Both the position numbers and the translations under genes were made by a program. The notes under the pieces are model-generated. The model did no database searches. It saw nothing but the letters and a program-made list of their open reading frames with translations, and was not told the origin of the DNA. Shown here one piece after another: positions 1 through 21,021 of a DNA stretch of 64,000 nt. Positions within the stretch are counted from its first letter, which is position 1. The number at the start of each line of letters is the position of its first letter. The DNA lies in contig CAUYUJ010000004.1 of the NCBI GenBank assembly GCA_963575745.1, positions 558,001 to 622,000 on the forward strand. Direction: 5' to 3'. The DNA comes from Prorocentrum cordatum. Its lineage: Eukaryota.

Positions 1-960
1 AGAGGGCGTAAGAACCTACGAATGGCTCATATCTCAAATTGAATGGATGATGTTGCGTGAGAAGGAAGAATGGAACATCAGTATGCATGAGGGTACTTTG
101 AACCAACGTGCTTGACAGACGCGGTTAGGCGGTGGTGGAGGCAACGGCAATGACAATCGTCGAGGTGCCAACGGCAAAGCCGCTGCGGCAGAAGTGGCAG
201 CCCGTCTCGGGAAGTCCACGGATCTCATGAAGAGCGGATTGACCAAGGGCGAGACGACGTGCAAATTTGTACGTAAGGGAGACACCTGCCCATATGCAGG
301 TCAGGGATGCCCGTTTAATCACAAGAAGCCCGAAGCCGCCGCACCGGCCCAGCCGGGTGCGGGGGCTAAGTCGAATGCTGCCCAGGTTCCGAAGTCGAGT
401 CCCAGAGGGAGGTTTGAGAAACCGAAAGGCGGAGGCCGAAAGGCCCAGAGCCGGTCACAGACCCCGACAGGTAGCCGTAGAAAGGTGCGCAGCAACGGAA
501 TAGGAGTCAATCCGACCGTTCAGGTAGAAAACAGAGCAAGATGCTGTGTTACCCTTACTCACGGGATCCCAAGAACTGCCGTGGACCTCCTGACGGTTGC
601 TACAGGGAACACAGAGCCTTGACCGACGCAGAAAAATTCAAGCGAGACAAGTATGAACAAGCGAAGCTTAATGCAGGTCAGACTCTAAAGTATGAGCGCA
701 CAATCAAACAGGCCAATGCCGCTGCCGCAAATGTTGCTTCGTCTGCAGGTGGCGGTGGCTCTAGGGCCTCCAGCACCAGTTCGGAAACACGAGAGAAAGA
801 TGGAGACAATAACAAAGGCAGAGGCAAAGGTAAAGCATGCTATGTCGCTCTTTCAAGGAAACGGGAAAGTGCACGCGTGGAAAGGAGTGTTGGTTCGCTC
901 AGACCACACCCAACCATCCGTGACACTGGCTCCGCACTGGCGGCCCAGCCGCCAGTGCAG
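1..960 (+). pseudogene. C-terminal part of Gag with CCCH-type zinc fingers
   Basis: TCKFVRKGDTCPYAGQGCPFNH (~257-322), CYPYSRDPKNCRGPPDGCYREH (~544-610) and a frameshifted third finger (ETGKCTRGKECWF, ~858-897). Homologous to 38900-39540. Confidence 0.7.
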
Positions 961-1599
961 GAATATTGATAGGAATAATTGTGTTAGGGGTGCTCTTTCT
1001 TGCCTTCCTCGCTAGACGGTTGCGGCGACGCCCGCGTCGGTCAAACCGAAAGTGGGGGGGCAGGGAGGTGCCCGCTGACCCAGTTAGCTTGGGCGTGATA
1101 GCATGCCCCGCCCCGTTCGTTCGGGGCCTCCCTGGGCAGAAGCAGGCCAGCCCACATTTTCCAAAGGCCTCTATAAATATAAATGGAGGAGTTGAAACAC
1201 GCCCCTCCGATGGAGAGCCCCTCCACGAGTGCAGGCAGCAAGTTGGAAGTCTTGTAAATATTGTCAATTTCCTGCATCCTCTTTCTCGGGGCGCTATCAA
1301 GATGCATTGGAGCGAGTCCCCTAACAAGAGTTGCATTCGATCTCAGACGAAGGATCGGTGCAAATTCCGCGTCCGATTTCACCCCTCGACTGCAGAGCCC
1401 GCCATCACTTGTAGGAAGGCGCGTCGCCACGACCTAAAAGAGTTGCCCTCAAGTGACGAAGACAAATGGAGGCCCCCAGCTAAAATGCGCCAGCAGTTGT
1501 CCACTCAGTGGAGAGCGTCTGCGGCGGAGGCCCTGATCAGGGCGTCAGACCTGCAAGATGACGTCTGGCACCTTTGGTTGAGGACTGAGGAGGGGGAAG

Positions 1600-1979
1600 A
1601 GGGCCCACGCGGATCTGGAGCGTATCTTGGAGCGCTGAGCTTTATAATTGATACAGGGTGTGGGTATAACCTCATAGCGGAAATGTATATTAAGAGTACA
1701 GGTGCAATGAGACTGATTCGAAAGCTTCCGCAATCGATCACTCTGAATACTGCCGGGGGAGAATCAAAAGCCTTCGGTTCAGTTCGCATCGCATTCCCTA
1801 AATTTAAGGGTGGTAGTTTTAACGCTTTGGTCATGCCGGAGACTCCGTGCGTGATCTCGGTAGAAGAGTGGTGCATGGACCACGGCTTTAGTTTCTTCTG
1901 GCCAGCAGGCCGAAGGCCCTACCTTTTGCTGCCGAACGGTCAAAGAGTGGACCTGATCGTTGAGGGCAAGATCCCATAA
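1600..1979 (+). pseudogene. Retroviral-type aspartic protease
   Basis: FIIDTGCGYNLI (D at 1650), followed by ITLNTAGG and PCVIS, typical of retrotransposon proteases. Confidence 0.8.
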
Positions 1980-2639
1980 TTGACCCTTTCAGGCAAAGAA
2001 GCGCTGGGTCAGTGGATGCGCGCGGTTGTCGCTGGAGAGGGTGAACCTCCCGAGCGGTGGTGTTGCGTGACGCCGGGCGCCAAGGCATTTCTGGACAATG
2101 TGGAATCGGCGGGTTGCCCTCCGCCCCGTACTGTTCAGACTCGCGTAACCATAGACTTGCATACGCATGAATTGATTGGCAACCGCAGCTACGTTGACGG
2201 ACGGCCGACTGAGCTCGCGCCTGTTTTTCCGTCCTCATTAGACTCTGCGGATACCATCACTTATTTTTACTATTCGCCTCGTAAGGCTAGCGAGAGCGGT
2301 TGGAGTCGGACACCGACCGGCGTTGCTGCCTCCAAATGTCCTTCGACTTTGCCCTGCCACGGCCAAGCCGCTGGTCAGACCGATGAGCAGCCCGGCAAAG
2401 TTGTGGCCCGCGCAGCCGCATATAAGAGCCCTTGTTGGTACGGGGTCTCTGGATACCTCCCCTACGACATGGATCGAGGGTTGGACTCCAATGCGCACGA
2501 CGCGGCCCCCGGGCCCGAGGAGGGCGAAGTTGGAGACGCTGACGGCGTCGACCTGGTCGACGCCGACGACCGTCAGAACCAGACCCAGACGATGCAGAGG
2601 TTGAGGTGTCGGGTTCCCTTGCCGAGCGGCTCAAAAAGG

Positions 2640-3420
2640 CCGCAGCCCCCCTGCCGCATCTTCTAACTCATACTCCCAAGAACCCGTATTGCTCAGTATG
2701 AAATTGGGCCAAAGCTATCAGACGACAGCAGCGCAAAGCGCGCAACAAAGGGCTGAAGGTTCCCCGCCCATACGCTAACCCCACTTCGTTTGGACACCTG
2801 ACGACGATGGACCATTGGTTTGCGATGGATGAACTCTCGCGGGGGCTCCACGATGAGACCGCGTGCGTGACTTTTCGCGACCGAGCAACTGATTTTTCCT
2901 CGCCGCTCAAGGTGTTCACGACAAGCCTGCGGCTCATCTTTCTAACTTTTTAGTGAACCTGAAGGCCCTGGGAGAAAAGTTAGAGTATTGTTACACAGAT
3001 GGCGCACGTGAGCTTGCAAGGGCATGTTACGAACTCAAGATTGCCCATGATCCTACCACCCCAGGAAATAAGAAACAAAACGCTGTTGCCGAGCGTGCGA
3101 ACGGCGTGGTACAGATGGGGGCCCGAGCGCTGCTCATGCAGGCCAGTCTCCCACCACCATATTGGACCTATGCCGTCAGATATTTTCGTATTTGCTACAA
3201 TGCAAGGACGCTTCGGGAAGGGAAGTCTAGTTGGGAACGTCGCTTCGGACACCCATTGAGGCGCCGCTTCTTCCCTTCGGGTCTCTCGCACGCTATGCGC
3301 CCCCGCCTGGATCGAGATTTCGGACAGCCAAGACTGGCGGAACGATGATCCCTGGGTTATACCTAGGGTATGTGCACAAAGCGGGGGGGACGGTTGGCCC
3401 AGAGAGCTACGTTGTGCCGC
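2640..3420 (+). pseudogene. Integrase (HHCC zinc finger and DDE core)
   Basis: HLLTHTPKNPYCSV* (last Cys mutated to stop), TMDHW, YTDGARELARAC, NAVAERANG, LPPPYWTYAVRY and PFGSL...PGLYLGY, spread over shifted frames. Confidence 0.85.
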
Positions 3421-4889
3421 TAAGACAGCCAAATGGGCTTAATATGGAATCAGGGCGCACGCCCGAGGGTAAGCGACCCGCCATAGAGAAGTCCGATCAG
3501 GTCTACAGCAACATCTTGGATGGCACTGCTGAGGATCAATCTCCTCGATTCCCTTTGAGGAAAGCGTGCGATCAGGCTATGACCGAAGTGCGCTCCGTTA
3601 CGATCCCCCCAGCCGGCGAGGCTGCGGCCGTCCCAGACGGTTCGGGGCAGGGGACAGGGGCGCAATCGGTCCATCCGTTTTGTGCAGAGGATCCCGCCAT
3701 AATTATGCCACCGCCTCCTCGAGGAGGCGAGGGCGCTCCACCGCCAGACTCCGAGGCCGATTCCGATGATGATGACGGTTCGGGGGGGTTATGCGTGGAT
3801 GACGAGCTTGTGGTGATTGACGGTCGGGGCCCGCAGCGAGACTCTCGCCCAGACGAAGATAAAGATCAGAAGTTCGGTCTCGCACATATCGAGTACCGTT
3901 TGGATCGACAATCTAATTTCTCAGCGGCCAAGCCGCGTGAGAAAGTTCCCAGGGAAGGGCAGCTCCTTGCTCGCGCGACCCAGAACCTTGACGCGATGGA
4001 AGACTATGAGGACAGGCGCATTGTCGTCGGCCTAACTAAAGAGGAATTAACACAGAAGCTCCCGTTCACAGGTCGTCGCAAGACGTGCAGCATGCGGGTT
4101 GTACTTTATTATGATCCCGACTGCGTTCCCGTGACCCGTGTGTGGGTCACCGATCCAGATCCTAAGCGCGGTGCTCAATGGCTGAAGAAATTGCCTGAAT
4201 CCACCAATCCTAGAATTCATCCCGGACGCTGGTTCAACATGAATCAGGCTCAACGCCGACAAGCCGTCGAGCAATACAAGGCCAAGAAGAGAGGATTCTT
4301 TGGAATAGACGATCCCGGTCCTTGTCTTGCCCTCCTGCGTGATATAGGCTTGGATGTGGAAGATCCACCAACTCCGCCCGCGCCCGCAGTGGCCCAGCCA
4401 CCCGCGGTTCGTCCTGTCTCTGAGGAGGACGCTGCCTACCTTGCGACGCATCCAAAGGCAAGAAGAGCCGCGCCGCGGGTTGTTGAGCGATTCCGTCGCC
4501 AGGCGGCACAGGGCGGCCAAGCCGCAGCTGTAGCCGCCGACCCCCCTGAGGAGGATGACTCCGACGACTATCTTTCGGATGATGAGGATGTATGGTGGAA
4601 GCAAACTTGGCGCGGTGGTACCATAGCACGTGACGGTGTTCCCTCCGGCCCAGCCGGCAGTGGCCTGTTATCCGATGTGGGTTCTGAGGTGACATAAGAG
4701 GCAAGCCTGGCCTTGAGTCCGGCGGCCGCCGCGTCGCGGCGAAGCGTGCCTCGAATGCCGTTGCAGCATAGCTCGGCCCCAATGCCTAGTCACCGTGAAA
4801 AGGAAAGATTTGATTTGGATTATTTATACAACCCTTTTACTGATCTCACGTCAATTGTTGACGAGCATTTTCAACTTCCCAGCGAATGG

Positions 4890-5157
4890 CAGCACGCTAG
4901 GATTGATGCCGCTGTAGCTCGCTCCGTTTCCAAAGTTGAGGCCCAGGCTAATCAAGATGCCCAGGCTGCTCCGAGAAAGGAATGGAACATATTGCGAGAC
5001 ATAGGTACATGGGGCGAGGAAGGCGCCATATGATATTCCGATGTCGTTGCAGAACTCAAAGGACAGACTGCCCACTTCGGTCGTCTGTTCGCAATCCTTG
5101 TCGAAAAGAACTCAGAGTTGCCACCCGGACACAAACGTCGTATATATACATATATAC

Positions 5158-5210
<53 letters not shown>

Positions 5211-6620
5211 AGTGGCACGTGTGTGCCCAGGCTCATACAACAAGCTGAAGGGGCGTTTGAAGCAGGAGTGACATGCAACAGCGAAGTCGCACTCGAGCGC
5301 AAGTGGGGTTGCCACACCTTGCGATGTGTGTACCAGGGCCCCCCAGGAAGCCTCAGGAGGCCCGACTTGGATACCAGGAGAGGCTCCAGGAGGCCCCAGG
5401 ATTGTGAGTGTTGTGTGTGTGTGATGTGTGCTTTGTGTGGTGCGTGCTTTTTGCGTGTTGTCGGTGTTGTGTGTGTGTGTATGTTATGTTTGTCTAGCGT
5501 GTGATGTGTTGGGCGTGATTTGTGTCTCTGTGTGTGCATGTAGTTCTGAAGCCCCAGGAGGCCCCAGGAGGCCCCAGGAGGCCCCAGGCGGCCTCAGCAG
5601 GCCCAGGAGAACTCCAGGAGGCTCCGAGGCGGGGTCTGGGGTACCAGAAGGTCCAGAAAGCCCCAGGAGGCCCCAGGAGGTTCCTGGAGGCCCCCAGGAG
5701 GCTCCGAGGAGGGGTCTGGGGCTCGATTTTGGGAGGATGTCTCAGGCGAAACCGCCATTCTCTGAGAATCGGAGTCAAAATCATTGAAATTACCATGTGT
5801 TTTTGAAGGTTTTATGATAAAATGTTGGAAATCCTATGTGTTTTTGGACCTCTCCTTCACGATCTGCGTGAGGGGTGCCACCGATTTTCAGAATTTTGAG
5901 GATGTCCCTAGCGAAACGGCCGGGAAAATCGAAGACGCACGCACGCACGGACGCACGGACGCATTAATCCCCTCTGAGCTCTACTCCCTCGGAGAGGTGC
6001 GTATGAGAATATATATATATATAAAGGTCGGGTAGTTTTCGATGGTTCAAGCGTGAGAGATCAGAATAAGGACGTTGCTTTATTTCAAGAACTTCCCAGC
6101 TGTCCTGCTACAATGCAGGCCAGCAAAGCAGCTGATACCTACGGGCTCTTGGAAGGCCATAGTATTGAACAAGTCGACGCCCGCCAGGCCTATACTCAGT
6201 CAAAGTTGGGTGGCACCGCGACGTGGGTATTCCTACCCTGTGATGAGTGGCCCGAGTCATGGTCGCATATGCGCAACCCCGTATGCCCGTTGATTTTATT
6301 TTTATACGGACACCCTGATTCAGGGGGGGATATCGGGGGCAACACAGCGAAGGGCACGTTACGGCTAAAGGATTTATAATATGTAGCCCGTGGCGCAGCT
6401 GCTACTTTCATACAGAGCTGAAGTTGTTATTGATAATTTACGTTGGCGATTTTAAGCTGGCTGGCCCTGCAGACAAGCTAGTTCAAGTTTGGATGTTGTT
6501 ACAACCCCCATCTCCCAATTGCTCGAAAGGCATAGAGATAGATCCTCCGACCGCGGTCGGACGATATTTGGGTTGTGAACATCGACTGTCCACGCAGTTT
6601 GTCGAGCGGCAAGGTGAGTT
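4890..6620 (+). pseudogene. Copia-type reverse transcriptase, interrupted by an insertion at ~5141-6020
   Basis: KEWNILRDIGTW, VEKNSELP, KRR|IYKGRVVFDG (rejoined across the insertion), QVDARQAYTQS, LYGHPDSGG, IYVGDFKLAG (YVDD mutated) and RYLGCEH. Confidence 0.9.
5141..6020. mobile_element. ~0.87-kb non-coding insertion flanked by (TA)n
   Basis: (TA)n at 5141-5208 and ~6009-6022. Removing the insert restores the RT peptide KRRIYKGRVVF. Contains a TG-rich tract and GGCCCCAGGAG-type repeats (5336-5710). Confidence 0.8.
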
Positions 6621-7049
6621 GCCCGCGACTTTGGACCCGCCGCCTCCTACAGCCAAGAAAAACGCCCCCGTCCCAGACGAGAGCGACGAGGAGGAAACGG
6701 GGGGTGACTCGGCGGCCCAGCCGCCTGAGCCATACCAACCGAGAGAACCCAAACGGGCCAGAGTTATATAATACGACATGATTGAATTATTCGAACCCTG
6801 TGTCACTTTATATGCACAACTCACAGATACTGACCCAGCTACTTAGCCCGCTGCAGGCACCCCGTTTGGCCCTGAACTTGCCGATCTCGAGGACGGCCAA
6901 GGCGGCCCTAGAGGTGAAGTTTGCTCTCCTGCAGAGGAAGCAATGACCTCAGCGTTGCAAATCAAAGTTGACGTAGGGCCCCCAGATCAGAAAATCGTTG
7001 TGCACGGCCTTGACGCCGCAGCGGCCAGCCCCAATGATCCGGAGCCGCC

Positions 7050-7817
7050 GACCCAGTCGGGAGTGCTCCAGCCCATCGCGGCGAAAGTCTTGATGAAGAT
7101 CCTTTACGGTGCGAGAATGGCTCGATGCGACCTGCTCCGCGCCGTGTGCCATACGGCCAGTTGCATTGCCAAATGGACAGAGCAACGAGACATGGATCTC
7201 TTCCGCTTCATTTGTTACATCAAGTGTACCTCTCACTACCGCATGTCTTCATGGGTAGGTGACAGAATGGAGGATGTCTGGTTGAAGCAATACTATGATG
7301 CGGATCCGGCCAGTGACATCCGAACACATAGGAGCACGAGTGCCAGTTATCAAGCAATTTGGGGCCCATACCTTAGGGCTGGGCAATCTACGGGATCTCA
7401 GAGACAGACAAGCGTTTCCCATAGTACTCTTGAGGCTGAAATTGTGGCTGCTGACCTTGCCCTGCGACAAGAGCTGCTAGCAGCCCTTCCGTTATGGGAA
7501 ATATTGCTTGGACGACAGATACGTTGTTTGTTCTTAGAGGACAACCAGGCAGTTTCAAGGTCATTAAAGCTGGAGGGTCCATGAAGCTAGTGCACCCACC
7601 GCGAACTCATCGCATTGGCGCTGCTGCAGTGTCTGAACAGTTTTCTCGAGGCATCGTCAAGCTTCAGTACGAACGGATTCAAAATGAGGCTGCCGACATT
7701 GGAACGAAGAGGTTCACAGACTCTTTGGCTTGGGTTAAGGTATTATATATTGTCAACGTTGCGACTCCTAAGTTCTGCACCGCCAAGCGGTGCCAAGACT
7801 ATTTATATTCGCTGTAA
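7050..7817 (+). pseudogene. RT tether and copia RNase H
   Basis: KVLMKILYGARMARCDLLRAV, YYDADPASDIRTHRSTS, SHSTLEAEIVA, LEDNQA, RTHRI and NEAADIGTK. Confidence 0.9.
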
Positions 7818-8689
7818 TCAGACGGCCCCCCCCTGAAACCCGGGGGGATTCTGAAGCCCCGCTTAGGTCCGAGTTCGGCTTTGCGGAGAGGAGATGTCGT
7901 ACCTAGCAAGAAGATGAACCAGAAAAAGAAGCGCCGTCAGCCCGCTGTGCATTCTCCAGACCCAGTAAATATCCCAGCGGCACCCAGCGGCGCTCAGCGC
8001 CCGGCTGCTACCGAGGCCGCCCCCGGCCAGGCCGCGGTGGCGAACGCCCCCGGCCAAGCCGCGGCGGCGAATGCGACCGGCCAAGCCGTGGAAGCAAGTA
8101 CAACTACTCTTGTTACGAAGGAAGAAGGTTCCAGGATAAGCTCCGACAAACCCAGGTCAATGGAGGAGATTGAGATGAGAGCGATGTTTGACATAACCGA
8201 CAGCGGAAGTGAATCTGATACATCGAATCTGTCAAAAGCGATGTGTGATGAACGATCGAGCGTTGAGCCAGTTAGTACCGAGCAGGGAGAAGACGTGCTC
8301 GGTTGCAACCTTCTTCTTCCTCACTTTCCGCCTGCTGCTGCTGCTGCTGCTGCTAATTTCCAGAATAGGAGGGATCAATGGACACAACACGGACAGAGTC
8401 TTAAACGATGGCACTTCGCTTCCAGCATTGTCGCGTTGACGCCCGCAAATACCGATTGCCCAGTTGACCCGAATAGGTTAGATGATCGGCGTCGTACCTA
8501 TGCAATCAATACCCGACATGGTTTGACTATTGACCGCACGGATAGTTGGCGCGACGAAGATAATAGATATCATCACCCCTTTGAGCAGAATTCGAATGGC
8601 GATTCCAGCGATGGCGACTATCACCCAAGTAGATGGACCGGCTGGGCGGAATTCTGGATCTGGGACGATTGTGCCCAGGCCACTCAGTG

Positions 8690-12400: not shown

Positions 12401-13639
12401 CTCGCCGTATTGTTCTTCTGCCAACCCTCCGGCGGCCAAGCCGTACAGAGGGGTACCCCATCGACGAAGAAAAGAGCCGATGGGTATACGATGGAAGAGG
12501 CTACCATTGATGAGCTAGTCATGCACTGGCAAGGCTGGAGCCCCACAGAGAACAATGTGCCCAAGTCTGTGCTTAACACTCGTCCGTTCGCGAAACCTTT
12601 GGACCCCATTTTGTTCCCTGCCGTCCAAGACGGGTCAGGGGACGGGGCAATTCATTCCAATTATTCTGCTGCGTTCATTGGGTTTCTTAAGCGAGGAAAT
12701 GCACATGCAGACTTCTGCCCGTGGCAAGATAATCATTATTTCTTGCCGCGATGTCAGCCCTTTTGTCCGGGAATGCCCCCGAAGGGAAAACGCTTTCGAT
12801 TGCCAAATTAAGGAGTGCAAAATGATCAACATATGCGCCCAGCCGTAGAGGAGTTGAAGAAGGCAGCATCTGTTGCCGTGCCCAGCGGCCCAGCCGCCTC
12901 GGGTGACGTTACTGCGGCGTGGGCGGCCCAGCCGTCCCGCGGTCCCGCTCTTGCTCCTGCGAAGTGCGTAAAGGACGCTGAGACGCCTGGTGAAGCGGCG
13001 GAGGAAGCTCTCCGTTTGAAATGCCCTGGTTGGCCGTGGAACCAAGCTCAGCGGTAATCACAGATTCCCACAGCGCGTTAAAGCAGGTGGCAATCCCGAT
13101 GTCCCTGCTGATTGGGAACACGATTGGCTGGTGCATCAGCTATATCAGAAGGTTAAGAAGTTGCCCTATAGTAGTGCGCTGAACACGGAACCAGTTCATT
13201 ATAACTTCCTCCGACCATTCACTGTAGCGAGCGGTGAGCTCTACAGACCTATGATGCCTTGGAACAGTTACCCAGGGGAGTCAGGCCGTGTTGCACTAGT
13301 GGCGAAAGGAGAAAATCCGACCCGCAGCAAAGAGTTCGGCATGATCCAAGTTCACGCCACTGGAGAGGCGTGGTTCGGTTTCCAGATGCTGCGCACGTCC
13401 ACGAAGACCCCGGTCTTGGAACCCAGTTATTTGGTTCCCAATTGGGCACGTTTCTTTGTGATTAAGGCCGATCGGTCACGTGAAGACCCAAAAGATACCG
13501 TTGCTGATCGCCTAAGTTGGGCGAAGTTGTCGACGAAGACCCACAGGGCGGGCAACAATCACTGCGTACAGCTCACTTTGACTTTCTAGGTACCGGATGA
13601 AAAGCTTTTGGAGGTCCAAGACCCATCCTCAGGTCTGAG

Positions 13640-13925
13640 CAGACAATCTCATGGTACGTCTGCGACCGCTCTCCATTCGATTTTGGAGGGCCATCAGTTG
13701 CTTACATTAAGCAAAAAAAGTTTGGTGTGTATTCTTTTTCTTGTACCAATAATCCTTCCACGCGTACTGCATATTCTGTTGCGGAAGAGACTTTTGGAGG
13801 TGGCATTTGGGCAACTGCGGAGATCATTTTGTATGCGAAGCCTATATGCATCAAGGGCTCGCCCGATCAGTTTGTCAGTGAACCATCCCAGATGGTGTTA
13901 TACGAACTTCGCCTCTACCATTGGA
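13640..13925 (+). pseudogene. PARP-like ADP-ribosyltransferase-fold domain
   Basis: SHGTSATALHSILEG, then a frameshift in the A-run at ~13713-13719, then FGVYSFS...RTAYS...WATAEIILY...DQFV. Spacing matches the HGT...GxY...Y pattern of H-Y-E clade ARTs. Confidence 0.5.
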
Positions 13926-16599
13926 CTCCTGCAGCACTTCATGTCACCCCAGCTTATGCCTTCTTGCAACATGTCGCTCGACAAAACGGATGGCCCTTGG
14001 AGCAAGACTTCGGGGTCGAGCGGCATCGCGACAAGGAGAGAGAGGCTGCCGCGGACCAAGTCCGAAAGGCACAGAGCCAGTGGGTCCCAAATTTAGGGCC
14101 CATTCTTTGGCAGAAGGATCGAATCCCCTACCATGAGCATCGTAGCGAGGTTGATGACATTTGGCCATGGCTCCAGGATAAAGGAGCCAGACCCCCTAAG
14201 ATCAATCCGTTACACAAAGACGAGGCCTCGGAAGCATCCAAGGCGCTTGTCCTGGCCAACAGGGAGAGCGAAGAGGAGGCCAAAGCCAAGTCGTCAACGG
14301 GTGTTCAGGTGCAGGCGCCGGCGGCAAAGCCGTCGGATGCGTCTTTTTCGCTAGATACCGAGAACTTCCCACCTGTGGGGCAGCCTGTGTTCCAGGTCGA
14401 GAGAGCGCCCCAGTCTCCGCCCGGCAAAGCCGTGGCGGAGGCGGTGCCTCCTCCTCCCAAAGCAGATGCAATTGCGAATGCACCTGTGCCTCCTCCCCCG
14501 CCGAGGGAGGCGCCGTCATCGGATAGGACAGCGGATGACGCGCCGAAAAAGCTTCCGCCACCATATAATAAGACGACGGCGCCGCCCCCGGCCAAGTCGC
14601 CGAACGTTGCACCGATGAAGGATTCACTTCCACGTAGGCCGGAGGACGATTTGCCGAAGAAGTTCCCGCCCCCATTTCATCCGAGCCCAGATGCACGAGC
14701 GCCGAAGCCTCCACCGGCTAAGGTGGCTCGCCTCGACACTGGAGCTGACTACCCTTCCGTTCGCCCGGCCGGCAGCGAGATCACTGGGGAGAGAACGTCG
14801 GCGAAGCCCGCTGATGCTGCACCCAAGGCTGCGCAGCCACCGGCCAAGCTGGCGGGCTTAGAGACGGCGAAAGGCCAGCCCCAGGCTTGGCCTGCGCCTC
14901 CAGGTACGCCGACTTGGTCACCAAGCCTCTGCGCGCCTGAGCTCCCCCCCCGGGCCAAGAGGTGGAACATTGAGCGTTCGCCGCGCTCTGGCCGCGGACT
15001 CCAGCAAGCTGATGCCGCGCCCAAGGCGGCACCGCAGCAACAGCATTTTAAAGCTTATCCGGGGCCTTCCCAGCCTGCCCAAGGCGGCACTGGGATGGGC
15101 CCGGCTGCGCGGGCCGAGAGGTCCGTCGCAAAGGCTGTGGCAACTGAGACAGAAGCCAAGACTGCCTAGGACCTAGGATGTGGGCTCTGATTGCCCCGGA
15201 GGCAATGACAGGCCGGACACTCTTGCGGCGTCTCTCCCGAATCAGACGGACGGAGATCCCTCGTCAGAGGAGCCCTTGTCCCCAGAGGGAGAAGACGCTG
15301 CATCCAATATCGTCCGAGTCATCAAATGCATCTCACATCGCCACTTCGAAGGCGCGCAAGCACGTAACGCGCTCAAGAACGAGCGCGATTTCTTCCTTCA
15401 ATGGCATCGTGCAAATGCTGCTCAGCCGACAGTTACCGAGGATCCTGATAATTCGCAAAGAGGAGACACGAGCTGGCTGAGAGAAAGGGGAAACACGAGC
15501 CAGGAAAGGATTCAGATTCTTGGAAGAAGTTTGCAGCCACTGTTGTAGAACAGATCCAGAGTGCAACACCAGATTTCCTTCCTATTCCTGTGATCGCCGC
15601 CAAGAGCAAGCGTTCACAGCCTCGCATTGAAGGCGAAACTGTTGCAAGTGGAAACAGGCTGCCCACTCCCCCTGCGCCGCCGTCCGGCCCAGCCGTGACG
15701 GCGAGCGCACTTAAGCCTCCGCCTGGCCCAGCCAGAGCGGAGGCCACGCCGACGCAGGGAGACCAGATGATAGTCGATTCAGGCGTTGCTGCTGCTTCAC
15801 ACGCTGCGCTTCATGAGGTTGCCGAATCGTCCCCTACCAAAGATGTTCCGAGCTCTTCTGATGAGGAGGCTGCGCCCGCTGCAGAGGCACCGCCACCAGC
15901 CGTCGCTTCGAGTGGACAGAACGCGGCGGAGCCTTCCTCTGCGGACAGAACCCGGGTGTCCCAGACACACCGGGGTCCCTTGAGGCCAGCCCAGATCTTG
16001 CCCAACTCAATGACTTCCCGTGCCCAGGGGATCCTGAACTTATCCACCTTGAGGAGGAACATTATCGATCTGGCCCAGCCTCTGCCAACTTTTTCTGCAG
16101 AGCAAGGCTGCCGCCTTCCCCCGATAAGCGGCAGCATAAACCGACGGACGGTTCGCCCCGAGAGGGCGATCAGGAGACTAATGTCGGGCATGCTTACCAT
16201 GCCAGGGGCAAAGAGCTTTATCTTTCGCTGGAAGACCGCACTCGAATTATTAACCATGCGCCCATCGATCTGACGCGGAGGGTTCGAGAGGCCCACACTA
16301 CCGGTCCTGCCCCCTCGGGTAGAGGCCCTTCGCAATCAGACGCTTGGCACGCTCAAACACATTGCGGAGCTCGTTGAAGATCCCATATTTGCATTATTGG
16401 GCGAGCTTTCCGTAGACGTGGGCACTTTTGAGCAGGTGCGAGATTTTCTCCGTGCTGAATTTCATTCTGATGATGTTCCCAGCGGATTTGATCCTCAGTC
16501 GTTTAAGGCCTTGACCCCATTGGTTGTGGGGGTCACTGACCGTGAGAATCCGGCGGCCCTAGGCTGCACGGAATTTCGGCGACCCCAAAGTTGTCGAGT

Positions 16600-17480
16600 A
16601 GATGGGTTTGCCGAGCGGATTTGTGATTTCGCGACGTATCTCGCGAGACATTGTTCTGATTATGCGAGGTCCTCGGGAGGCTGGGTCTATTTTGGAGACC
16701 TGGTCGAGAAGATGGACGAGGATGTTTTTCAATGCCAAACATGCGCACTTGCTGCACACGGCCTAGCCGCGCTGCAGCCGGGGACCGTGGAAGTCCGTGG
16801 TGCGCTCCCTGAAGGCGCTGCCCATATCAGGGAGACGGTCGTTCACAAACGGTGGCGTGACTGCAAAGCCTGGCCCCCTCAAGGGGACGAGCGGGCTAAA
16901 TGCCCCATTCCTGTTTTCTATCGAGCGTGCCAGGGACATTCCACGCTTGTTGCTTCAATTGAGAGGATGTATGTGCCCTATGGCCCTGGCCTAGCCAGGT
17001 GTCATGGGCCCCTCCTCCATATCACTGACATGGGGACGTTGGTGGAATCCGTGGTCGGAGAAGTTCAGTTCCCAAAAAGCGCCCCAGGGCTTTGCCTCGA
17101 GGCGGACTACGAATTGTTGAGGCTTCTTCGGACCAAGAAGGATCCGAGCATGCAAAGTTCAGACCATTTTCCCTCTTGGCTAAGCCAGCGAAAGGATGGA
17201 GAGCTTGCTCCTGTGAAGAAGCACCATGCCATGGGCAAAGACCTACAGCCGGGAGAGCCTCCATCGATTGGAGCATGGCCCGCAGTGGGCACAGTCCGTC
17301 TGTGGGACCAGCTTCCAACTCACCGAGACTCCTGGCCATTAGTTCTTGTTTTCAATGGCCGTGTGCTCACCCGCTTTTCGTACCGGGTCTGCCAAGACGG
17401 GACTCTCGTGTCCCGTGAGGTGCCGAGGTTCACTGACATCGACAAAGCCGCCATTCTTGCCAAAGTCAGCGACTGGTGGG
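16600..17480 (+). CDS. Tpt1/KptA (NAD-dependent RNA 2'-phosphotransferase)-like domain within ORF 16397-17536
   Basis: FATYLARH...GGWVYFGDLV, FYRACQGHS, LLHITD..L..SV and LVLVFNG...YRVCQDGTLVSREVP correspond in order to the KptA motifs LRH, GW, IRAxQGHS, LYHGT and S/ENGVWL. Confidence 0.7.
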
Positions 17481-20232
17481 AACAAGACGAAAAGCGAATG
17501 TCGTGGTCAATTGTCTTTAATCAGGAGTGGACTTAATATGAGGTAAATGTTGATAATGCCTCGATGTTCGGTTGGATTTACACCGACGAGACTTTGACGT
17601 TGCTCCCAGAATATAGGCATACGTTGCCTGGTAGGGCAGACGCATTCATTCAGTTTGTTCCCTGGGAGGACGACGGTCGGTTCCTCTGTGCTGGATTGCA
17701 CTGGGTGCGACCTGGTTTTGGCCGTTGCCCCTCTTGTAATAAAACAGTAAAGTAGAAGTACATGGTTGCCCATGATTATTTGCTTCAGTCACTCAGACAC
17801 AGGATCATTCGAGACTCGCTGTGGAACAATGGCATTGTGTTGCATGTTGTTGATCATGAGACGCTGCCTTGGGCGCATGATCGCTACGTTGGTGAGCGAC
17901 TACAACGACAACGGAGAGCTGCGGCAGACGTACTGACGAACATAAGCAACAATCTGAAGATGGAGCGCAAATGGGCAACACATAATCAGCACCTTATCTT
18001 GGCTGCTTCAGGTCAAACCTTTGGAAACAGCCGCCCGGGTATTGCTCCTGCCTGGGTTTCCGAGCACGTCGCTGCCCAGCCGCCGGCGCGCCGCGGCCCT
18101 TTCTTTCAGCATCTTGAACCTCTGAAGAGGAGGTTCATAACATGGCTTGCACATTTGGCTGCGAGAGAAGGGATTCAGGCCCCACCGCTCTCCGAGCGGT
18201 GGCCTCTGCTTTGGGCAACAGAAATTGATCAGCATGCGCGTCCCTTGTCTTGTCCCGCTCTGGCTGCCTTCGAATGGCCAGAAGCATCTGACTCGTACAT
18301 CGAACCCATTGAAGGTTGGATTGAATGGGAACACAGCATGCAGGTGACGAACACTTTTGCGCCAACTCTTCGGACGTTGCGCGACGCAAAAACGGGAGCA
18401 GCACCCTGGCTGCCCGTTGCCCAGGGCACCGCTATGGACGCCACAGGGCCCAGCCTTCGTGGACGTCCACCGGTTGCTTGGGCAGATGATTTTGTGGCAC
18501 GTCCTCCTCGTGCTTCCCAGTTCGTCAGCAGGCGCAACGAAATGCGTTCTAAACGCCCTCTCAGTTCGGTGAAACCTGCCGCCGGTCAAACCGCGACGAC
18601 AGGTGATGAGAGAAACGTAGATATGACCCTTGATTTCACCGCTGTCTGCGGGTCCCAGACCCAGCAGATGCTCGACGGGAGGATCGATTTCGATCGGGCC
18701 AATGGACTAGTGTACTCTCGCCGCGATGACAAATCGTTGAGCATCACGTTGACCAAGAATGGAGCTCTTGATGTGGCGGCTCAATATGTCATGGAATACA
18801 TCTGCTATCGCCCGGACACGAACGAGACTGAGAGGTTACGACTGACGGGTGAAGTAACGCATGATGTTCCGGAAGACGTGCGGCAGACCATTGAATGGAT
18901 GTGGAGAGTTAGACCTTGAGCTGGGTCTCCGCATCATTCGCGAGATTGCAGTTGTCCGTGAGTTCATTAGTTGTTTCATTGATGGGGGATTTTATATTGC
19001 ATACAATTCGGCAAATTTTCTTGCCCGCGGCACAGGCGTTGGGTGCGATGATGACAAGCGTCTGACGGATGCATGCGCGCTTGATTGCGGCATTCGGGCG
19101 GCGATCGAGACAGATGACCTTATCGAAGAATGGGCCCATGATTTGGGCAGACAGGGTCGTGCATATATCCGTCGTCAGGGCATGAAGCTGCAAGGGGCTA
19201 TCCACTGCTTATATCCAGACGTGGAAGCAACTCAGCTCCAAGATGCAGATGAAGGCCCCTTTCGCACTGCCCGTGGTATTTGTGGTACTTTTATCGCTGC
19301 CGCCGCAAGGGGTATTATCAGATATGCTAAACTGCAGCAAGAGACGAGTGTTCGTGAAAGGGGAGACGCTGATGGGCCCTCCGACGGCCAAGCCGTTACG
19401 GAAGGGATTCCTCCGGCGAAAGCGAGGCCCAGCCCAGCTGTTCGCCCCGATCCGCCCCTTTCCCCTCGTAGACCCGACGTCCAAGACGATCGGGCCAACG
19501 ATGACGTCGCTGAGTCCCCATGCTCTGCCGTCGGTCAAACCGGCGCGGCAGGAGAAGAGTATTCGTGGTATTCTTCGGATAGGGACACATGGGATTGGTC
19601 GAGGCCCGCGCGCGCGCGGCGGGGACATGGCTGCTGGGCGCGCGGATGGCGGCTACAACCCCAACGTCCACTAGCCGTGCTACACGGGCGACGAGTTGCA
19701 GGGATATTGGATCCGTCAGACCGCAATTCGCTGGATGTCCCGCGAGGACAACGAGCGTCGGACGCGGCATTTGGCGCTTCCCAGTGACTACGAGTACCAC
19801 TTTCGGAGACCGAAAGGCAAGGGATACTCCAGGAACAAGGACAAGGACAAGTACGACAGGCCAGCTCCCTATGCTGGCCGTGGTAAGGGAGGCAGGTCAG
19901 CCTCGCCTTATTGGGCTGCTGACCAGACGAGAGGTTCGTCATCTTCGCATCCGAGACCTCCGTCTCCGCCTTCGGGGCGATACCCATAGCACAAGAGGTG
20001 AGAACAGGCAAGGACCGTGCGACAAAGTCGCCACGGCAGCGCCCGAGCGACAAAGTCGTTTCGGCAGAGAGTTTTTATTTAACTATTGGTGGGATTCGTC
20101 GGGTCTCTCCGGCCCTCAGCCCCCTGGCAGCCACCGTTGAGCGGTAAAGTGCTTTTGGGGTTCGCTCCGGTGGCTGTATATATGTGCAGGCCAGGCGGGC
20201 TGTGGCTGGTTGGACTCTACAAAACCCGCCGC

Positions 20233-20432
20233 GGGGGGGGTAAATGTGCCCCTCTCCGCCTCATTCTGCACCTGCCTCTTCTGCTGCCTGCCTTGCCCTA
20301 CCTTGACACTGATCTGCAGCTGTTTGCTGCTCAAGCGAGAAAGATGCGCGCCGGCCTTCGGCCTGCGCCCGTCGTCGGTCGTCGGCCGGCCGGACCTCCT
20401 CCCTTCCTATACTTGAGTGCAGTTGCTTAACG
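20233..20432 (+). repeat. Putative polypurine tract (G8) and short 3' LTR
   Basis: Shares GT.AA..GCCCCT..CCGC at the start and CGTCGGCCGGC...CCTC.TCCC..CTAT..TTGAGTG...TGCTT.ACG at the end with 35056-35268. Its end GCTTAAC is the reverse complement of the GTTAAGC start of the second copy. Confidence 0.55.
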
Positions 20433-20479
20433 GATAGGTTCATCGATGTCTCATCCTGCATCCCCTACCACTGAGCAGA

Positions 20480-21021
20480 CACCTCCCCTAGCAGACCCTT
20501 CTCGGAAGCCCGCAAAAAAATCATAGTAGTACCAAGGCGGTCTTCCATCGAAGTCGCAGCCGAAGGCGCGGACCCAGTCAGGACAAGCCGAGCAGCGACT
20601 TCCCGCATAGCGTCCTTCAGGAAGCCAAGGTGTTCGATGTTCGTAGCATTGGGGCTGTCCTTGATCTTGCCGTAATAGTTGAGGGCGACCTGTCGGGGAA
20701 AATCCGGATGTTGTATCGCCAGCTCCGGGAGCGGCCTCTCCCCTTCGCTAACCCTCTGAGGGGCTTGACGTGCAAAGAAGACCGCCCGATGGGCAGACAG
20801 CCCTGGCTTCCACTCGAGTGCCGAGGCTTGCATGTGCCTGTCTAGCTGCTCCGCGGTGCGCTGGTTACAATAAATTATATCCAAGCGGGGCCGCGCGGAG
20901 GCTGAGGCATGAGAGAGATCAGGCTGGCACATGTCATGCAACTCAAAGGGGCGACCAATGACCTGCTGAAAATGTCGCTCTCCCGCTGCATGCCGGCGGC
21001 CTGAAGTACTGGAAGTGCCAA
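20480..21021 (-). pseudogene. Inverted LINE ORF2 segment: APE endonuclease C-terminus and linker
   Basis: RPRLDIIYCN...LSAHRAVFF (RLDxxY and SDH-like motifs). The segment ends ...GLLGEVSA, which continues into the forward ORF start VSACITRC. Confidence 0.8.

What the first reader, a model, noticed from the sequence alone, without database searches (positions are those of the whole stretch)
1..20432. Giant copia retrotransposon carrying nucleic-acid-modifying cargo (DNMT, SGNH, ART and Tpt1-like domains)
Seen: after RNase H the + strand stays coding for ~12 kb, with motifs of a C5 methyltransferase, an SGNH-like domain, a PARP-like ART and a Tpt1/KptA domain, and ends at a G-tract plus an LTR-like segment. 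Established: typical copia elements are roughly 5-10 kb with gag-pol only. Inference: using the paralogue (LTR ~3.8 kb upstream of the point equivalent to base 1), the element would be ~23-24 kb. It may encode its own SAM- and NAD-dependent enzymes for modifying cDNA/RNA or countering host defence. I am not aware of this combination being described.
Basis: partly seen in the sequence, partly recalled or inferred. Interest (0 to 1): 0.92.

Follow-up and report, generated by a model that had tools for sequence, protein, structure and literature searches.

The report
Giant copia-like retrotransposon with Tpt1-like cargo
This is a decayed copy of an unusually large (about 24 kb) copia-type jumping gene whose polymerase gene runs on for about 12 kb into extra conserved protein modules, one of which resembles an enzyme that modifies RNA and DNA ends.

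Summary
The observation largely holds. Bases 1-7814 (+) are a very divergent Ty1/copia-like gag-pol in the order PR-IN-RT-RH. It is collinear at 40-76% aa identity with an almost intact metagenome relative, L001, which has an open frame of at least 4055 codons with one stop. After RNase H, a stop-poor frame track continues to about 19990. It ends at a G8 tract and a 192-nt LTR (20241-20432). That LTR aligns end to end with the segment just upstream of the gag of a paralogue in the same window (35059-35268).

The stop at 7815 is private to this copy. In 3 independent relatives (P0010, L001, L002), RNase H is fused in frame to the next conserved Cys-rich domain (8691-9530). The whole 20 kb is multi-copy in one public DNA run (11,724 contigs laid).

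The domain names fare unevenly:
- **Tpt1/KptA-like (16613-17014):** supported. hhalign gives 89-91% probability, 0 of 100 shuffles reach the score, and the N-lobe folds as a winged helix.
- **DNMT:** not supported; scores are at null level.
- **SGNH:** only a short local match.
- **PARP:** not located.

This window copy is dead: at least 20 in-frame stops, several frameshifts and an 884-nt insertion. I rate it a new variant of a known kind. The function of the cargo is inferred, not shown.

The parts
1..920 (+). C-terminal part of gag, with a CCCH zinc knuckle (CKFVRKGDTCPYAGQGCPFNH, about 287-350). The element's 5' end lies outside the window.
   Evidence: Weak zf-CCCH hits in the window and at the end of L001 ORF1. 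Collinear with L001 2660-3532. Paralogue at 38902-39544 with 41-60% aa identity.
924..2663 (+). Start of pol: aspartic protease region (IIDTGCG), frame 3, broken by TAA at 1977.
   Evidence: 61% aa identity to L001 4298-4735. Weak gag-asp_proteas / Asp_protease_2 hits.
2570..4400 (+). Integrase region, with frameshifts near 2890-3255.
   Evidence: 54-58% aa identity to L001 5240-6184. Weak rve hit in the matching L001 tile. Nearly all other genomic copies carry an extra T at 3255 (9 contigs).
4700..6770 (+). Reverse transcriptase (YVGDFKLAG), interrupted by a secondary insertion.
   Evidence: 58-77% aa identity to L001 7412-8308. RVT_2 hit E 3.8e-4 in the L001 tile, below the cut-off.
5136..6019 (.). 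884-nt secondary insertion inside RT: a microsatellite plus a very high-copy repeat. Not part of the ancestral element.
   Evidence: Absent from L001 (window 5132->6020 corresponds to L001 7642->7654). 2 contigs of run X1 join 5135 to 6020. Depth 9,000-68,000 in three runs.
6847..7814 (+). RNase H and the canonical end of copia pol (TLEAEIVAA, EDNQA, ADIGTKRF), with a frameshift near 7570.
   Evidence: 59-66% aa identity to L001 8933-9877. Also aligned to P0010 and L002.
7815..7817 (+). TAA stop between pol and the extension. It is private to this copy or lineage.
   Evidence: P0010 reads F at this position, and L001 and L002 are open through it.
7818..8690 (+). Variable, low-complexity linker, much shorter in L001.
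   Evidence: Window 7937-8691 corresponds to L001 9877-10001. Alignment A2.
8691..9530 (+). Conserved Cys-rich domain fused to pol, with a CxGxHxH tail. Motifs: EYCCxPxS, LWSSIPCTGGSPWQYVNE, CIEWP, HGCAYGL, KCDGTHEHEEARG. Fold unknown. Frameshift at about 9245.
   Evidence: 7-sequence alignment A7 with 18 invariant columns. Found in P0009, P0010 and L001-L004. No match to DNMT profiles or to PDB sequences.
9598..12315 (+). Frame-1 ORF track (233 + 672 aa, TAG at 10297). It holds a Gly/Pro-rich stretch, a DPPY motif at 11344, and a short SGNH block-V-like stretch at about 11545-11655.
   Evidence: hhalign against SGNH: score 25.3, against a shuffle maximum of 20.3. hhalign against Dam: score 18.1, reached by 1 of 100 shuffles. 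No homologue found in the one length-limited search. Covered by multi-copy contigs.
12323..15166 (+). ORF pieces in frames 2/3/2 (12323-13054, 13020-13586, 13601-15166). The last is Pro-rich. No family assigned.
   Evidence: Lowest contig depth of the element (45-60) at 14340-15673.
15294..18955 (+). Conserved cargo block that is a single ORF in relatives. The window copy has frameshifts at about 15445, 15950, 16115 and 16310, and stops at 16271, 17534, 17753 and 18917.
   Evidence: 157 database proteins with E <= 1e-3. 13 cross each of the stops at query positions 695 and 768. P0012, P0100, P0126, P0145 and P0153 bridge the frameshifts.
16613..17014 (+). Tpt1/KptA-like module: a winged-helix RNA lobe carrying ARH...GGW and YRACQGHS, then HGP at the start of the would-be NAD+ lobe.
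   Evidence: hhalign against a 22-sequence KptA profile: probability 89%, E 2.3e-6, 97 columns, score 49.3 against shuffles with mean 14.5 and maximum 29.8. 91% with a query-anchored MSA. Model N-lobe pLDDT about 80. KptA chains are the top Foldseek rows at E about 1. VIA Z 7.0 and 6.9 to KptA/Tpt1 N-lobes.
18858..19986 (+). Last ORF pieces (frames 3 and 1) before the 3' untranslated end.
   Evidence: P0097 aligns to 18791-18955.
20233..20240 (+). G8 run directly before the LTR; polypurine-tract-like.
   Evidence: Read directly from the sequence.
20241..20432 (+). 3' LTR (192 nt, TAAATGTG...GCTTAACG).
   Evidence: End-to-end alignment with 35059-35268: score 96, against a control maximum of 48 (local version). 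Contig depth falls from 329 to 76 in the next bin.
35059..39544 (+). Truncated paralogue of a related family: 5' LTR (35059-35268), leader, long gag ORFs (35324-36943, 37716-38357, 38746-39423). It is used here only to place the LTR.

Best explanation
Bases 1-20432 are the 3' five-sixths of one dead copy of a high-copy, roughly 24-kb LTR retrotransposon family of the Ty1/copia type, in a GC-rich eukaryote.

Intact members carry a very long gag (at least 1178 aa in L001). A single stop separates it from a pol frame that encodes protease, integrase, reverse transcriptase and RNase H. That frame does not end there. It continues into a conserved Cys-rich domain and, in this lineage, about 10 kb more of coding sequence before a G-rich tract and the 3' LTR.

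One block of that extension (16613-17014) is a homologue of the RNA-binding lobe of Tpt1/KptA, the NAD+-dependent RNA 2'-phosphotransferase / nucleic-acid 5'-phosphate ADP-ribosyltransferase. It keeps the Arg-His and Arg residues that hold the substrate phosphates.

Shown: the element's architecture, the in-frame fusion of the first extra domain, conservation and multi-copy status of the cargo, and the Tpt1 homology.

Inferred: the element replicates like any LTR retrotransposon (LTR-to-LTR RNA, gag-pol particles, reverse transcription, integration). The extension would be made as part of the pol polyprotein and cut out by the protease. The Tpt1-like module would act on a phosphorylated end or branch of the element's own RNA, cDNA or primer tRNA. 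The other modules remain unassigned.
For: - **Copia type.** Window 1-9400 is collinear with one frame of L001 at 40-76% aa identity. L001 tiles give Asp_protease_2 (E 0.18), rve (E 0.17) and RVT_2 (E 3.8e-4) in the order PR-IN-RT.
- **Pol runs on.** P0010, L001 and L002 read from RNase H (ADIGTKRF) into the Cys-rich domain in one open frame. L001 is open over 2-3538 plus 3539-12169.
- **One element.** The frame track has no non-coding gap from 7818 to about 19990. No internal LTR or TIR pair exists in 1-21500. The 3' LTR at 20241-20432 is homologous to the 5' LTR of a paralogue.
- **Multi-copy.** 11,724 contigs of run X1 were laid at >= 85% identity, and all 30 bins are covered. Some contigs lack the 884-nt insertion, and others carry bases that undo this copy's frameshifts at 3255 and 15950.
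- **Cargo is a real gene.** 157 proteins match the 15452-18916 read-through at E <= 1e-3 (94 at <= 1e-10). 13 cross each of two of its stops, and 5 bridge its frameshifts.
- **Tpt1.** hhalign probability is 89-91%, with 0 of 100 shuffles reaching the score. The other 34 of 35 segment-by-family comparisons in that script were at null level. The N-lobe is a winged helix, with KptA/Tpt1 at Z 7.0/6.9 and the highest sequence identity among the top rows. The R-H, R and HG[PT] positions align with those described for Tpt1 (passages of PMC6333775).
Against: - The 5' LTR and TSD of this copy cannot be seen.
- No single contig or protein was shown to bridge pol to the distal cargo (9600-15300). The one protein search of that part found nothing (length-limited).
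- L001, L003 and L004 carry a different tail after the Cys-rich domain.
- Summed contig depth over the cargo (45-350) is about a third of that over pol (300-1760), so many copies or subfamilies may lack it. Depth from contigs is a poor measure.
- All Pfam hits for pol are below the curated cut-offs.
- For Tpt1: Pfam PTS_2-RNA gives no hit at E <= 1, and PDB sequence searches find nothing. Foldseek E is about 1, and VIA Z is tied with generic winged helices. The NAD+ lobe is not recognisable: pLDDT is below 50, and alignment confidence is near zero beyond HGT. The fourth tetrad Arg is not placed, and one relative (P0007) has Q for the first Arg. Catalytic activity is therefore doubtful.
Confidence: 0.72

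Rival explanations
1. Composite locus. A copia element of about 13 kb ends soon after the Cys-rich domain (about 9.5 kb in the window), and 9600-20200 is a different repeated unit (another mobile element or a multi-copy gene) that lies beside it or inserted into its 3' part. On this reading only the outer LTR belongs to the copia.
For: The L001, L003 and L004 tails diverge from the window exactly after about 9530. Contig depth over 9.6-19.7 kb is about one third of that over pol. No bridging record was shown. No homologue was found for 11.4-12.3 kb.
Against: There is no stop-rich, non-coding gap, no polypurine tract and no LTR-like segment at 9.4-9.7 kb. Frame 1 simply continues from the Cys-rich domain's tail (9229) to 12315 with two stops. 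No LTR or TIR pair flanks 9.6-20.2 kb. No RT, transposase or other mobile-element family was detected there. L001 also keeps an open frame for at least 1.6 kb beyond the domain, so long post-RNase H extensions are a trait of the clade. A nested insertion would have to share the strand and leave no ends.
Confidence: 0.15
2. The extension is real but not enzymatic. It would be rapidly evolving structural or accessory protein (env-like, nucleic-acid chaperone or host-factor decoy), and the Tpt1-like part would be only a winged-helix RNA-binding domain derived from Tpt1 that has lost catalysis.
For: Only the RNA lobe through HGT aligns. The C-lobe is unmodelled. The fourth Arg was not found, and R is replaced by Q in P0007. 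Large parts are low-complexity. No other enzyme family was detected in 35 profile comparisons or by Pfam.
Against: The residues that contact the substrate phosphates in Tpt1 (R-H, and the R of RAxQGHS) and the GHS and HG motifs are invariant or nearly so across relatives at 43-51% identity. That pattern is expected for a site under selection. The failure to model the C-lobe may only reflect shallow, fragmentary alignments.
Confidence: 0.3
3. The first post-RNase H domain is a minimal C5 cytosine methyltransferase, too divergent for profile methods.
For: By eye, the order and spacing of EYCCGPQS / YTExED / SxPCTGGS / CIEWP / HGCAYGL resemble DNMT motifs I, II, IV, VI and VIII (my reading; the motif definitions are recalled, not from a call). 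Retrotransposon-borne DNMTs are known in other classes (passages of PMC5890265).
Against: hhalign against Dcm alone gives 0.17%. Against a 31-sequence PF00145 profile it gives 0.1-0.3%, scores 13-17, which is null level. The only local match puts EYCCxPxS on motif IV, not motif I. There is no Pfam hit in the window or in 3 relatives. The domain has no Gly-rich SAM loop, no TRD, and no motifs IX or X. The 2018 paper states that Symbiodinium Copia elements lack DNMT.
Confidence: 0.08

Closest known systems
Ty1/copia (Pseudoviridae-type) LTR retrotransposons
   Same: LTR-bounded. gag with a zinc knuckle. Pol in the order protease-integrase-RT-RNase H. Copia-style RT and RNase H motifs, and the ADIxTK end of pol.
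   Different: About 24 kb, against the usual 5-10 kb (the usual size is my general knowledge). gag is at least 1178 aa in L001. Pol continues for thousands of codons after RNase H. The sequences are so divergent that RVT_2 and rve stay below Pfam cut-offs.
Retrotransposons that captured nucleic-acid-modifying enzymes: SymbioLINE-DNMT, SymbioDIRS-DNMT3, Gypsy-DNMT3 (PMC5890265, passages); DAM-LTRs and EpiLTRs (bioRxiv 10.64898/2026.05.21.726589, abstract and passages); an m6A demethylase domain in orchid Ty3/gypsy (PMC9289625, listing and start of abstract only)
   Same: Extra enzyme-like domains are encoded inside the element's own polyprotein, conserved across copies and relatives.
   Different: Those are LINE, DIRS or Ty3-like elements. 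The passages I read name no copia carrier, and the 2018 paper says the abundant Symbiodinium Copia lack DNMT. The captured domains there are recognisable by standard family models. Here the only assignable module is Tpt1/KptA-like, a family that no paper in the library links to retrotransposons (3 papers hold all three terms, all genome reports with 1-2 mentions each). The extension is also far longer.
Tpt1/KptA/TRPT1 (Pfam PTS_2-RNA)
   Same: A winged-helix RNA lobe with the LRH...GW and RAxQGHS motifs, followed by HG(T/P), collinear over 97 columns.
   Different: It is embedded in a multi-thousand-residue polyprotein and has a roughly 25-residue insertion in the lobe. The NAD+ lobe is unrecognisable, the fourth catalytic Arg is not identified, and it scores below all curated thresholds.
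Other giant retroelements with accessory ORFs (plant Ogre-type Ty3/gypsy; rotifer Terminons with GDSL esterase). Recalled; no paper read here.
   Same: Size above 20 kb reached by adding coding sequence to a standard retroelement core.
   Different: A different superfamily (copia), different cargo, and the extension is apparently in frame with pol.

Membership tests
Ty1/copia LTR retrotransposon | Pol domain order protease - integrase - RT - RNase H (integrase before RT) | tested here: met
   In the collinear relative L001: Asp_protease_2 at about nt 4310, rve at about 5514, RVT_2 at about 7649. The window is collinear with it. RNase H and ADIGTKRF follow. All three Pfam hits are weak (E 0.18, 0.17, 3.8e-4).
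Ty1/copia LTR retrotransposon | RT belongs to the copia-type family (Pfam RVT_2) above the curated threshold | tested here: inconclusive
   20.6 bits against a cut-off of 31.6 in the L001 tile. No hit in the broken window copy.
Ty1/copia LTR retrotransposon | Two long terminal repeats flanking the internal region | tested here: inconclusive
   A 3' LTR is present and homologous to the 5' LTR of a paralogue. This copy's own 5' LTR lies outside the window, and no genome is held.
Ty1/copia LTR retrotransposon | Target-site duplication and primer-binding site | not testable with these tools
   The 5' end is not in the window. A G8 polypurine-like run precedes the 3' LTR.
Tpt1/KptA (PF01885 PTS_2-RNA) | Match to the family model at the curated threshold | tested here: not met
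   No PF01885 hit at E <= 1 in the window, or at E <= 0.1 in 20 relatives. PDB sequence searches with profiles A1 and A5 found no Tpt1.
Tpt1/KptA (PF01885 PTS_2-RNA) | Profile-profile homology over the RNA lobe | tested here: met
   hhalign gives 89% (E 2.3e-6, 97 columns) and 91% with a second MSA. 0 of 100 column shuffles reach the score (maximum 29.8 against 49.3). The reversed control scored 15.
Tpt1/KptA (PF01885 PTS_2-RNA) | Winged-helix N-terminal lobe | tested here: met
   Model residues 2-118, pLDDT about 80. VIA Z 7.0 (rmsd 2.6, 73 aligned, 22% id) to KptA 9ld3_A and Z 6.9 to Tpt1 7kw9_A, tied with other winged helices (top Z 8.3). KptA chains are the top Foldseek rows at E about 1.
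Tpt1/KptA (PF01885 PTS_2-RNA) | Arg-His-Arg-Arg catalytic tetrad (PMC6333775, passages) | tested here: inconclusive
   R-H (ARH) and the third Arg (YRACQGHS) align and are conserved. P0007 has Q for the first Arg. The fourth Arg, in the NAD+ lobe, could not be placed.
Tpt1/KptA (PF01885 PTS_2-RNA) | C-terminal NAD+-binding ADP-ribosyltransferase lobe | tested here: inconclusive
   pLDDT is below 50 after residue 117. Alignment confidence is near zero beyond HGT.
C5 DNA methyltransferase (PF00145) | Sequence or profile similarity to the family with collinear motifs I, IV, VI | tested here: not met
   No Pfam hit. hhalign gives 0.1-0.3%, scores 13-17, equal to null. The only local match is non-collinear.
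SGNH/GDSL hydrolase (PF13472) | Blocks I, III and V carrying the Ser, Asn and Asp-x-x-His residues | tested here: inconclusive
   Only a block-V-like stretch (KDCFHP, nt about 11545-11655) matches: score 25.3, against a shuffle maximum of 20.3. The IVSDST...FWNFHD part scores 14.5, which is null. No Pfam hit. The query was a single sequence, so power was low.
PARP-like ADP-ribosyltransferase | H-Y-E type catalytic domain | not tested
No Pfam PARP/ART hit in any ORF.
Dam-type N6-adenine methyltransferase (PF02086), as in DAM-LTRs | (D/N)PPY catalytic motif within a Dam-like catalytic subdomain | tested here: inconclusive
   DPPY at nt 11344 aligns to the Dam motif, but the score is 18.1 and 1 of 100 shuffles reaches it. 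No Pfam hit.

The most novel reading that the evidence does not exclude
Intact members of this clade translate a gag-pol-cargo polyprotein of more than 6,000 residues. They carry their own active NAD+-dependent Tpt1-type enzyme, and further unrecognised enzymes, that chemically edit phosphorylated ends or branches of the element's RNA, cDNA or primer tRNA. This would be a retrotransposon-encoded nucleic-acid end-modification toolkit with no described counterpart, in the copia superfamily, which has been regarded as cargo-poor.
Probability: 0.3. Interest if true: 0.85.

Novelty: new variant of a known kind. Interest (0 to 1): 0.7.

Why it matters
LTR retrotransposons rarely fix new protein domains. 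The known cases (DNMT, Dam, AlkB-type demethylase, chromodomain) have each shown how elements deal with host chromatin or RNA marks.

Here a copia-type lineage, abundant in its host and present in marine metagenomes, has more than doubled its coding capacity. It includes a relative of Tpt1/KptA, an enzyme family whose role outside fungal tRNA splicing is still an open question.

If the module is active, the element offers a natural setting for asking what Tpt1-type chemistry does for a replicating nucleic acid. It also shows that standard domain scans miss large parts of the mobile-element proteome: no Pfam hit reached threshold anywhere in 20 kb of conserved coding sequence.

Tried and rejected
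- **Stop-codon reassignment.** Considered as the cause of the in-frame stops and rejected. All three stop codons occur, relatives read sense codons there, and other genomic copies differ at such sites.
- **In-window DNA paralogue or LTR by BLAST.** Nothing at E < 1e-10 or with short words. Only dedicated pairwise alignment found the LTR pair.
- **Whole genome.** Not held.
- **Earlier scan notes.** None.
- **First structure job.** The 420-aa ORF with 4 sequences failed at pLDDT 33. That left no fold for the Cys-rich, 9.6-15 kb or 17.5-19 kb parts.
- **148-sequence MAFFT alignment of fragments.** Unusable (tests).
- **ESM Atlas.** Unreachable, or the sequences are not stored.
- **Homologue search for 11.4-12.3 kb.** None among 3706 candidates, limited to lengths 369-1176 aa.
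- **Viral contig scans.** Scans with A3, A1 and 11401-12315 found no relatives.
- **PDB sequence searches.** Searches with A1, A5 and A7 gave nothing relevant.
- **Foldseek against PDB.** No match at E <= 0.001.
- **Profile tests of every cargo segment.** Tested against Macro, 2H phosphoesterase, SGNH, DNMT and KptA. All were null except KptA on 380-694 of the read-through, plus the local SGNH stretch.
- **Dam.** At null level.
- **RNA evidence.** No RNA holder was listed by the look-up of sequencing runs.
- **Runs X2 and X3.** They hold only the high-copy insert.
- **Joint 2375->14415.** Seen in 2 contigs with a short side of 22 letters. Too weak to interpret.
- **GC3 periodicity.** Did not mark the coding frame in this element.
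- **A first shuffle script** timed out and was rerun.

Full report
**What is in the sequence.** The window is GC-rich (50-68%) eukaryotic DNA, and no genome is held for it.

On the + strand of 1-20000, stop-to-stop ORFs follow one another closely. They are separated by single in-frame stops of all three kinds (TAA, TAG, TGA) or by overlaps in a neighbouring frame. In 300-nt windows one + frame has 0-1 stops while the others have 3-10, from about 900 to about 19800. A reassigned genetic code does not explain this. All three stops occur, relatives read sense codons at those places, and other genomic copies differ at some of them.

None of the 29 ORFs examined within 1-20432 has a Pfam family at E <= 0.01; the 30th ORF in that scan, 20962-23634, is a separate element with an RVT_1 hit. 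The 15 read-through translations gave only noise-level hits.

**The pol part is a very divergent copia.** Translations show several pol motifs:
- IIDTGCG (protease)
- an integrase C-end
- YVGDFKLAG (RT)
- TLEAEIVAA and EDNQA (RNase H)
- ADIGTKRF, about 30 residues before a TAA at 7815

That these are copia signatures is my recall. The test is the comparison with metagenome locus L001, which holds 12,169 nt of a 13,967-nt contig.

L001's frame 2 is open from 2 to 3538 and again from 3539 to the end of the locus. That is at least 4055 codons with one stop. Window 1-9400 is collinear with that single frame at 40-76% amino-acid identity.

Tiles of the L001 ORF give three Pfam hits, in this order:

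| Pfam family | E-value |
|---|---|
| Asp_protease_2 | 0.18 |
| rve | 0.17 |
| RVT_2 | 3.8e-4 |

The order is that of Ty1/copia, although every score is below Pfam's cut-off. The first L001 ORF (at least 1178 aa) ends in a CCCH knuckle, like window 287-350. gag is therefore also oversized.

**Pol does not end at RNase H.**
- Protein P0010 (380 aa) reads HLPRTHRI...ADIGTKRF...YLSSMFSDGLPLKPGG and continues into the next conserved domain. It has F where the window has TAA.
- L001 and L002 do the same in one open frame. L002 is a 2066-nt contig that is one ORF from end to end.
- L003 and L004 cover the domain and what follows it.

The domain (window 8691-9530) has 18 invariant columns among 7 sequences, among them LW..PCTGG.PWQYVNEA. 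It is followed by a KCDGTHEHEEARG...Y...A..VH tail.

The tests do not support that:
- hhalign gives 0.17% against E. coli Dcm.
- It gives 0.1-0.3% (scores 13-17) against a 31-sequence PF00145 profile, which is the level of shuffled controls in the parallel tests.
- The only local match puts EYCCxPxS on DNMT motif IV, so the order is not kept.
- A PDB sequence search found nothing relevant.

**The distal 10 kb.** Frame 1 continues from the domain's tail (9229) to 12315 with two stops. Pieces then follow in frames 2, 3, 2, 3, 2 and 3 up to about 19990.

For 15452-18916 I searched the 1.8-billion-protein representative library with the read-through:
- 157 proteins match at E <= 1e-3, 94 at <= 1e-10 and 28 at <= 1e-30. 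Nearly all are short fragments, 30-82% identical.
- 13 of them cross the stop at query position 695 and 13 cross the one at 768.
- None crosses position 274. There, however, P0012 and P0100 (with P0126, P0145 and P0153) align across changes of frame.

In relatives, one ORF therefore spans at least 15294-18955, and the window copy carries frameshifts.

None of the 20 longer relatives has a Pfam hit at threshold. For 11.4-12.3 kb, the one length-limited search found nothing among 3706 candidates. After about 9530 the tails of L001, L003 and L004 resemble each other but not the window. The distal cargo is therefore specific to a sub-lineage.

**Tpt1/KptA-like module.**

*Motifs and conservation.* The ORF 16274-17533 has three relatives at 43-51% identity. 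The motifs ARHCSDYARSSGGWV, PVFYRACQGHS and HGPLLH.T are invariant or nearly so.

*What found nothing.* Pfam and PDB sequence searches see no match.

*Structure.* A fold from 4 sequences failed at pLDDT 33. A second, using 59 sequences for 16589-17533, gave pLDDT about 80 for residues 1-116 and below 50 for the rest.
- Foldseek's top rows are KptA chains, but at E about 1.
- VIA-align against 48,161 chains shows a winged helix. KptA 9ld3_A scores Z 7.0 (rmsd 2.6, 73 aligned, 22% id) and Tpt1 7kw9_A scores Z 6.9.
- These values are tied with many unrelated winged helices, the top being Z 8.3.

*The decisive test is profile-profile comparison.*

| KptA profile | Probability | Score | Column-shuffle controls |
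|---|---|---|---|
| 5 sequences | 11.8% | 29.0 | 100 shuffles: mean 14.0, max 21.8; reversed 15.0 |
| 22 sequences (from unnamed bacterial genomes and E. coli) | 89% (E 2.3e-6) | 49.3 | 100 shuffles: mean 14.5, sd 3.0, max 29.8 |
| 22 sequences, query-anchored 70-sequence MSA | 91% | 50.3 | not run |

The 22-sequence alignment covers 97 columns, KptA positions 8-107. In the same script as the 91% result, the other 34 of 35 segment-by-family comparisons (KptA, DNMT, SGNH, Macro, 2H) scored 10-21.

*What aligns.* The aligned residues include the Arg-His of LRH, the Arg of RAxQGHS and the HG of HGT. According to passages of PMC6333775, Arg18, His19 and Arg68 sit in the winged-helix RNA lobe and bind the substrate phosphates.

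*What stays open.* Beyond HGT the alignment has no confidence. The NAD+ lobe and the fourth Arg are unresolved. I conclude homology to the Tpt1 RNA lobe with good confidence, and catalytic competence with much less.

**Other named domains.**
- **SGNH.** The single sequence 11401-12315 was compared with a 15-sequence PF13472 profile. It gives one local match of 35 columns (ITEIARKNGHSWIPFV...KDCFHP on block V). The score is 25.3, against shuffles with mean 12.7 and maximum 20.3. The part that the eye reads as blocks I and III (IVSDST, FWNFHD) scores 14.5, which is null.
- **Dam.** A DPPY motif at 11344 aligns to the Dam catalytic motif, but at score 18.1, reached by 1 of 100 shuffles. It is a lead only.
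- **PARP.** I found no PARP-like domain and built no PARP profile.

**One element, and its end.**
- A G8 run (20233-20240) precedes a 192-nt segment, TAAATGTG...GCTTAACG.
- That segment aligns from first to last base with 35059-35268. The score is 96, with 144 of 173 aligned columns identical. The maximum is 48 in 593 other windows and 47 in 300 shuffles.
- The similarity stops exactly at 20432 / 35268.
- 35268 lies 55 nt before a 540-aa ORF that opens a gag-like region. That region's 3' part matches window 5-645 (41-60% aa) and L001 gag (27%).
- So 20241-20432 is a 3' LTR of the kind that starts a sister element. The missing 5' part of this copy is about 3.6 kb plus an LTR, giving about 24 kb in all.
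- No LTR or TIR pair lies inside 1-21500.

**Copy number and decay.** One public DNA run (X1, coded organism A) holds a third of the sampled words of 7400-17399. Of its contigs, 11,724 lay on 1000-20999 at >= 85% identity:

| Identity to the window | Contigs |
|---|---|
| >= 99% | 1357 |
| 95-99% | 2587 |
| 90-95% | 4750 |
| < 90% | 3030 |

All 30 bins are covered. Differences are mostly transitions. Summed depth varies along the element:

| Region | Summed depth |
|---|---|
| pol | 300-1760 |
| cargo | 45-350 |
| bin with the LTR | 329 |
| bin after the LTR | 76 |

These figures are rough, but they show that the cargo is repeated DNA, not a single-copy gene. They also show that the cargo is rarer, or more diverged, than pol.

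Two contigs join 5135 to 6020. That matches the 884-nt insertion inferred from L001. The inserted repeat is extremely abundant in three runs.

Other copies carry an extra T at 3255 and an extra C at 15950, where this copy is frameshifted, and C for T in the TAG at 14859. This copy is therefore a pseudogene of a family that has, or had, intact members.

**Literature.**
- Passages of PMC5890265 describe DNMT capture by LINE and other elements. They state that the abundant Symbiodinium Copia lack DNMT.
- The 2026 preprint (abstract and passages) describes Dam capture by Ty3-like LTR and DIRS elements. 'Copia' and 'Ty1' do not occur in its main text.
- A search for Tpt1, KptA and retrotransposon found 3 papers holding all three terms, all genome reports with 1-2 mentions of each. 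The remaining listed papers concern Tpt1 enzymology.
- A search for giant copia elements with additional domains listed nothing comparable.
- I did not read supplements.

**Verdict.** The finding is a real and unusual element. The architecture (giant copia, pol fused to extra domains, LTR after the cargo) is well supported, as is one of the four domain names. The other three are unsupported or weak, and function is inferred.

Noticed in passing
window 5136-6019: An 884-nt insertion inside the RT. It holds a (TA/CA)-type microsatellite (read as IYIYIY in translation) and an approximately 80-nt tandem pair (5564-5641 / 5644-5721). Contig depth is 9,000-68,000 in three runs of different coded organisms, so it is a very abundant, widely shared repeat.
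   Followed up: partly
window 20962-23631 (+): An intact 890-aa ORF with an RVT_1 reverse transcriptase domain (E 5e-19) starts about 530 nt after the LTR. It is a separate, non-copia retroelement.
   Followed up: no
window 30510-33133 (-): ORFs with weak RVT_1 (E 4.5e-4) and Exo_endo_phos (E 1.9e-4) hits. Probably a decayed LINE.
   Followed up: no
window 47065-48702 (+): A 546-aa uninterrupted ORF with a PROPPIN/WD40 beta-propeller (E 1.4e-25). It looks like an intron-less host gene.
   Followed up: no
window 49719-53375 (+): A 1219-aa ORF without any Pfam hit. It begins in a (CAT)n/(CAC)n His-rich repeat (49811-50060).
   Followed up: no
window 54500-55900 and 61890-64000: Arrays of a 32/42-nt palindromic unit (GAGCTCTAACATGCCATGTTAGAGCTCC-like) in both orientations, beside (GCAACAGCCGCT)n 12-mer arrays at 54140-54360, 55260-55370 and 60330-60840.
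   Followed up: no
L001 2-3538: The gag-like first ORF of the intact relative is at least 1178 aa (5' open). Apart from the terminal CCCH knuckle it has no recognisable family, so the 5' half of these elements also carries unexplained coding capacity.
   Followed up: partly
window 11344-11415: NDPPYFGRGPWNALDYHWIKGEF aligns on the DPPY...F..Y catalytic motif of Dam-type adenine methyltransferases, but not above chance (score 18.1; 1 of 100 shuffles reaches it). Worth a fold, given the recent report of Dam capture by LTR elements.
   Followed up: partly
window 2375 / 14415: Two contigs of run X1 join 2375 to 14415 (skipping 12,039 nt) with only 22 letters on the shorter side. This is either a deletion derivative or an artefact.
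   Followed up: no
window 17640-17750: A conserved C..H...CP.C pattern (FLCAGLHWVRPGFGRCPSCNK; in relative P0029 YICGHLLYFRSGWPACPECQ) suggests a small zinc-binding module downstream of the Tpt1-like block.
   Followed up: no
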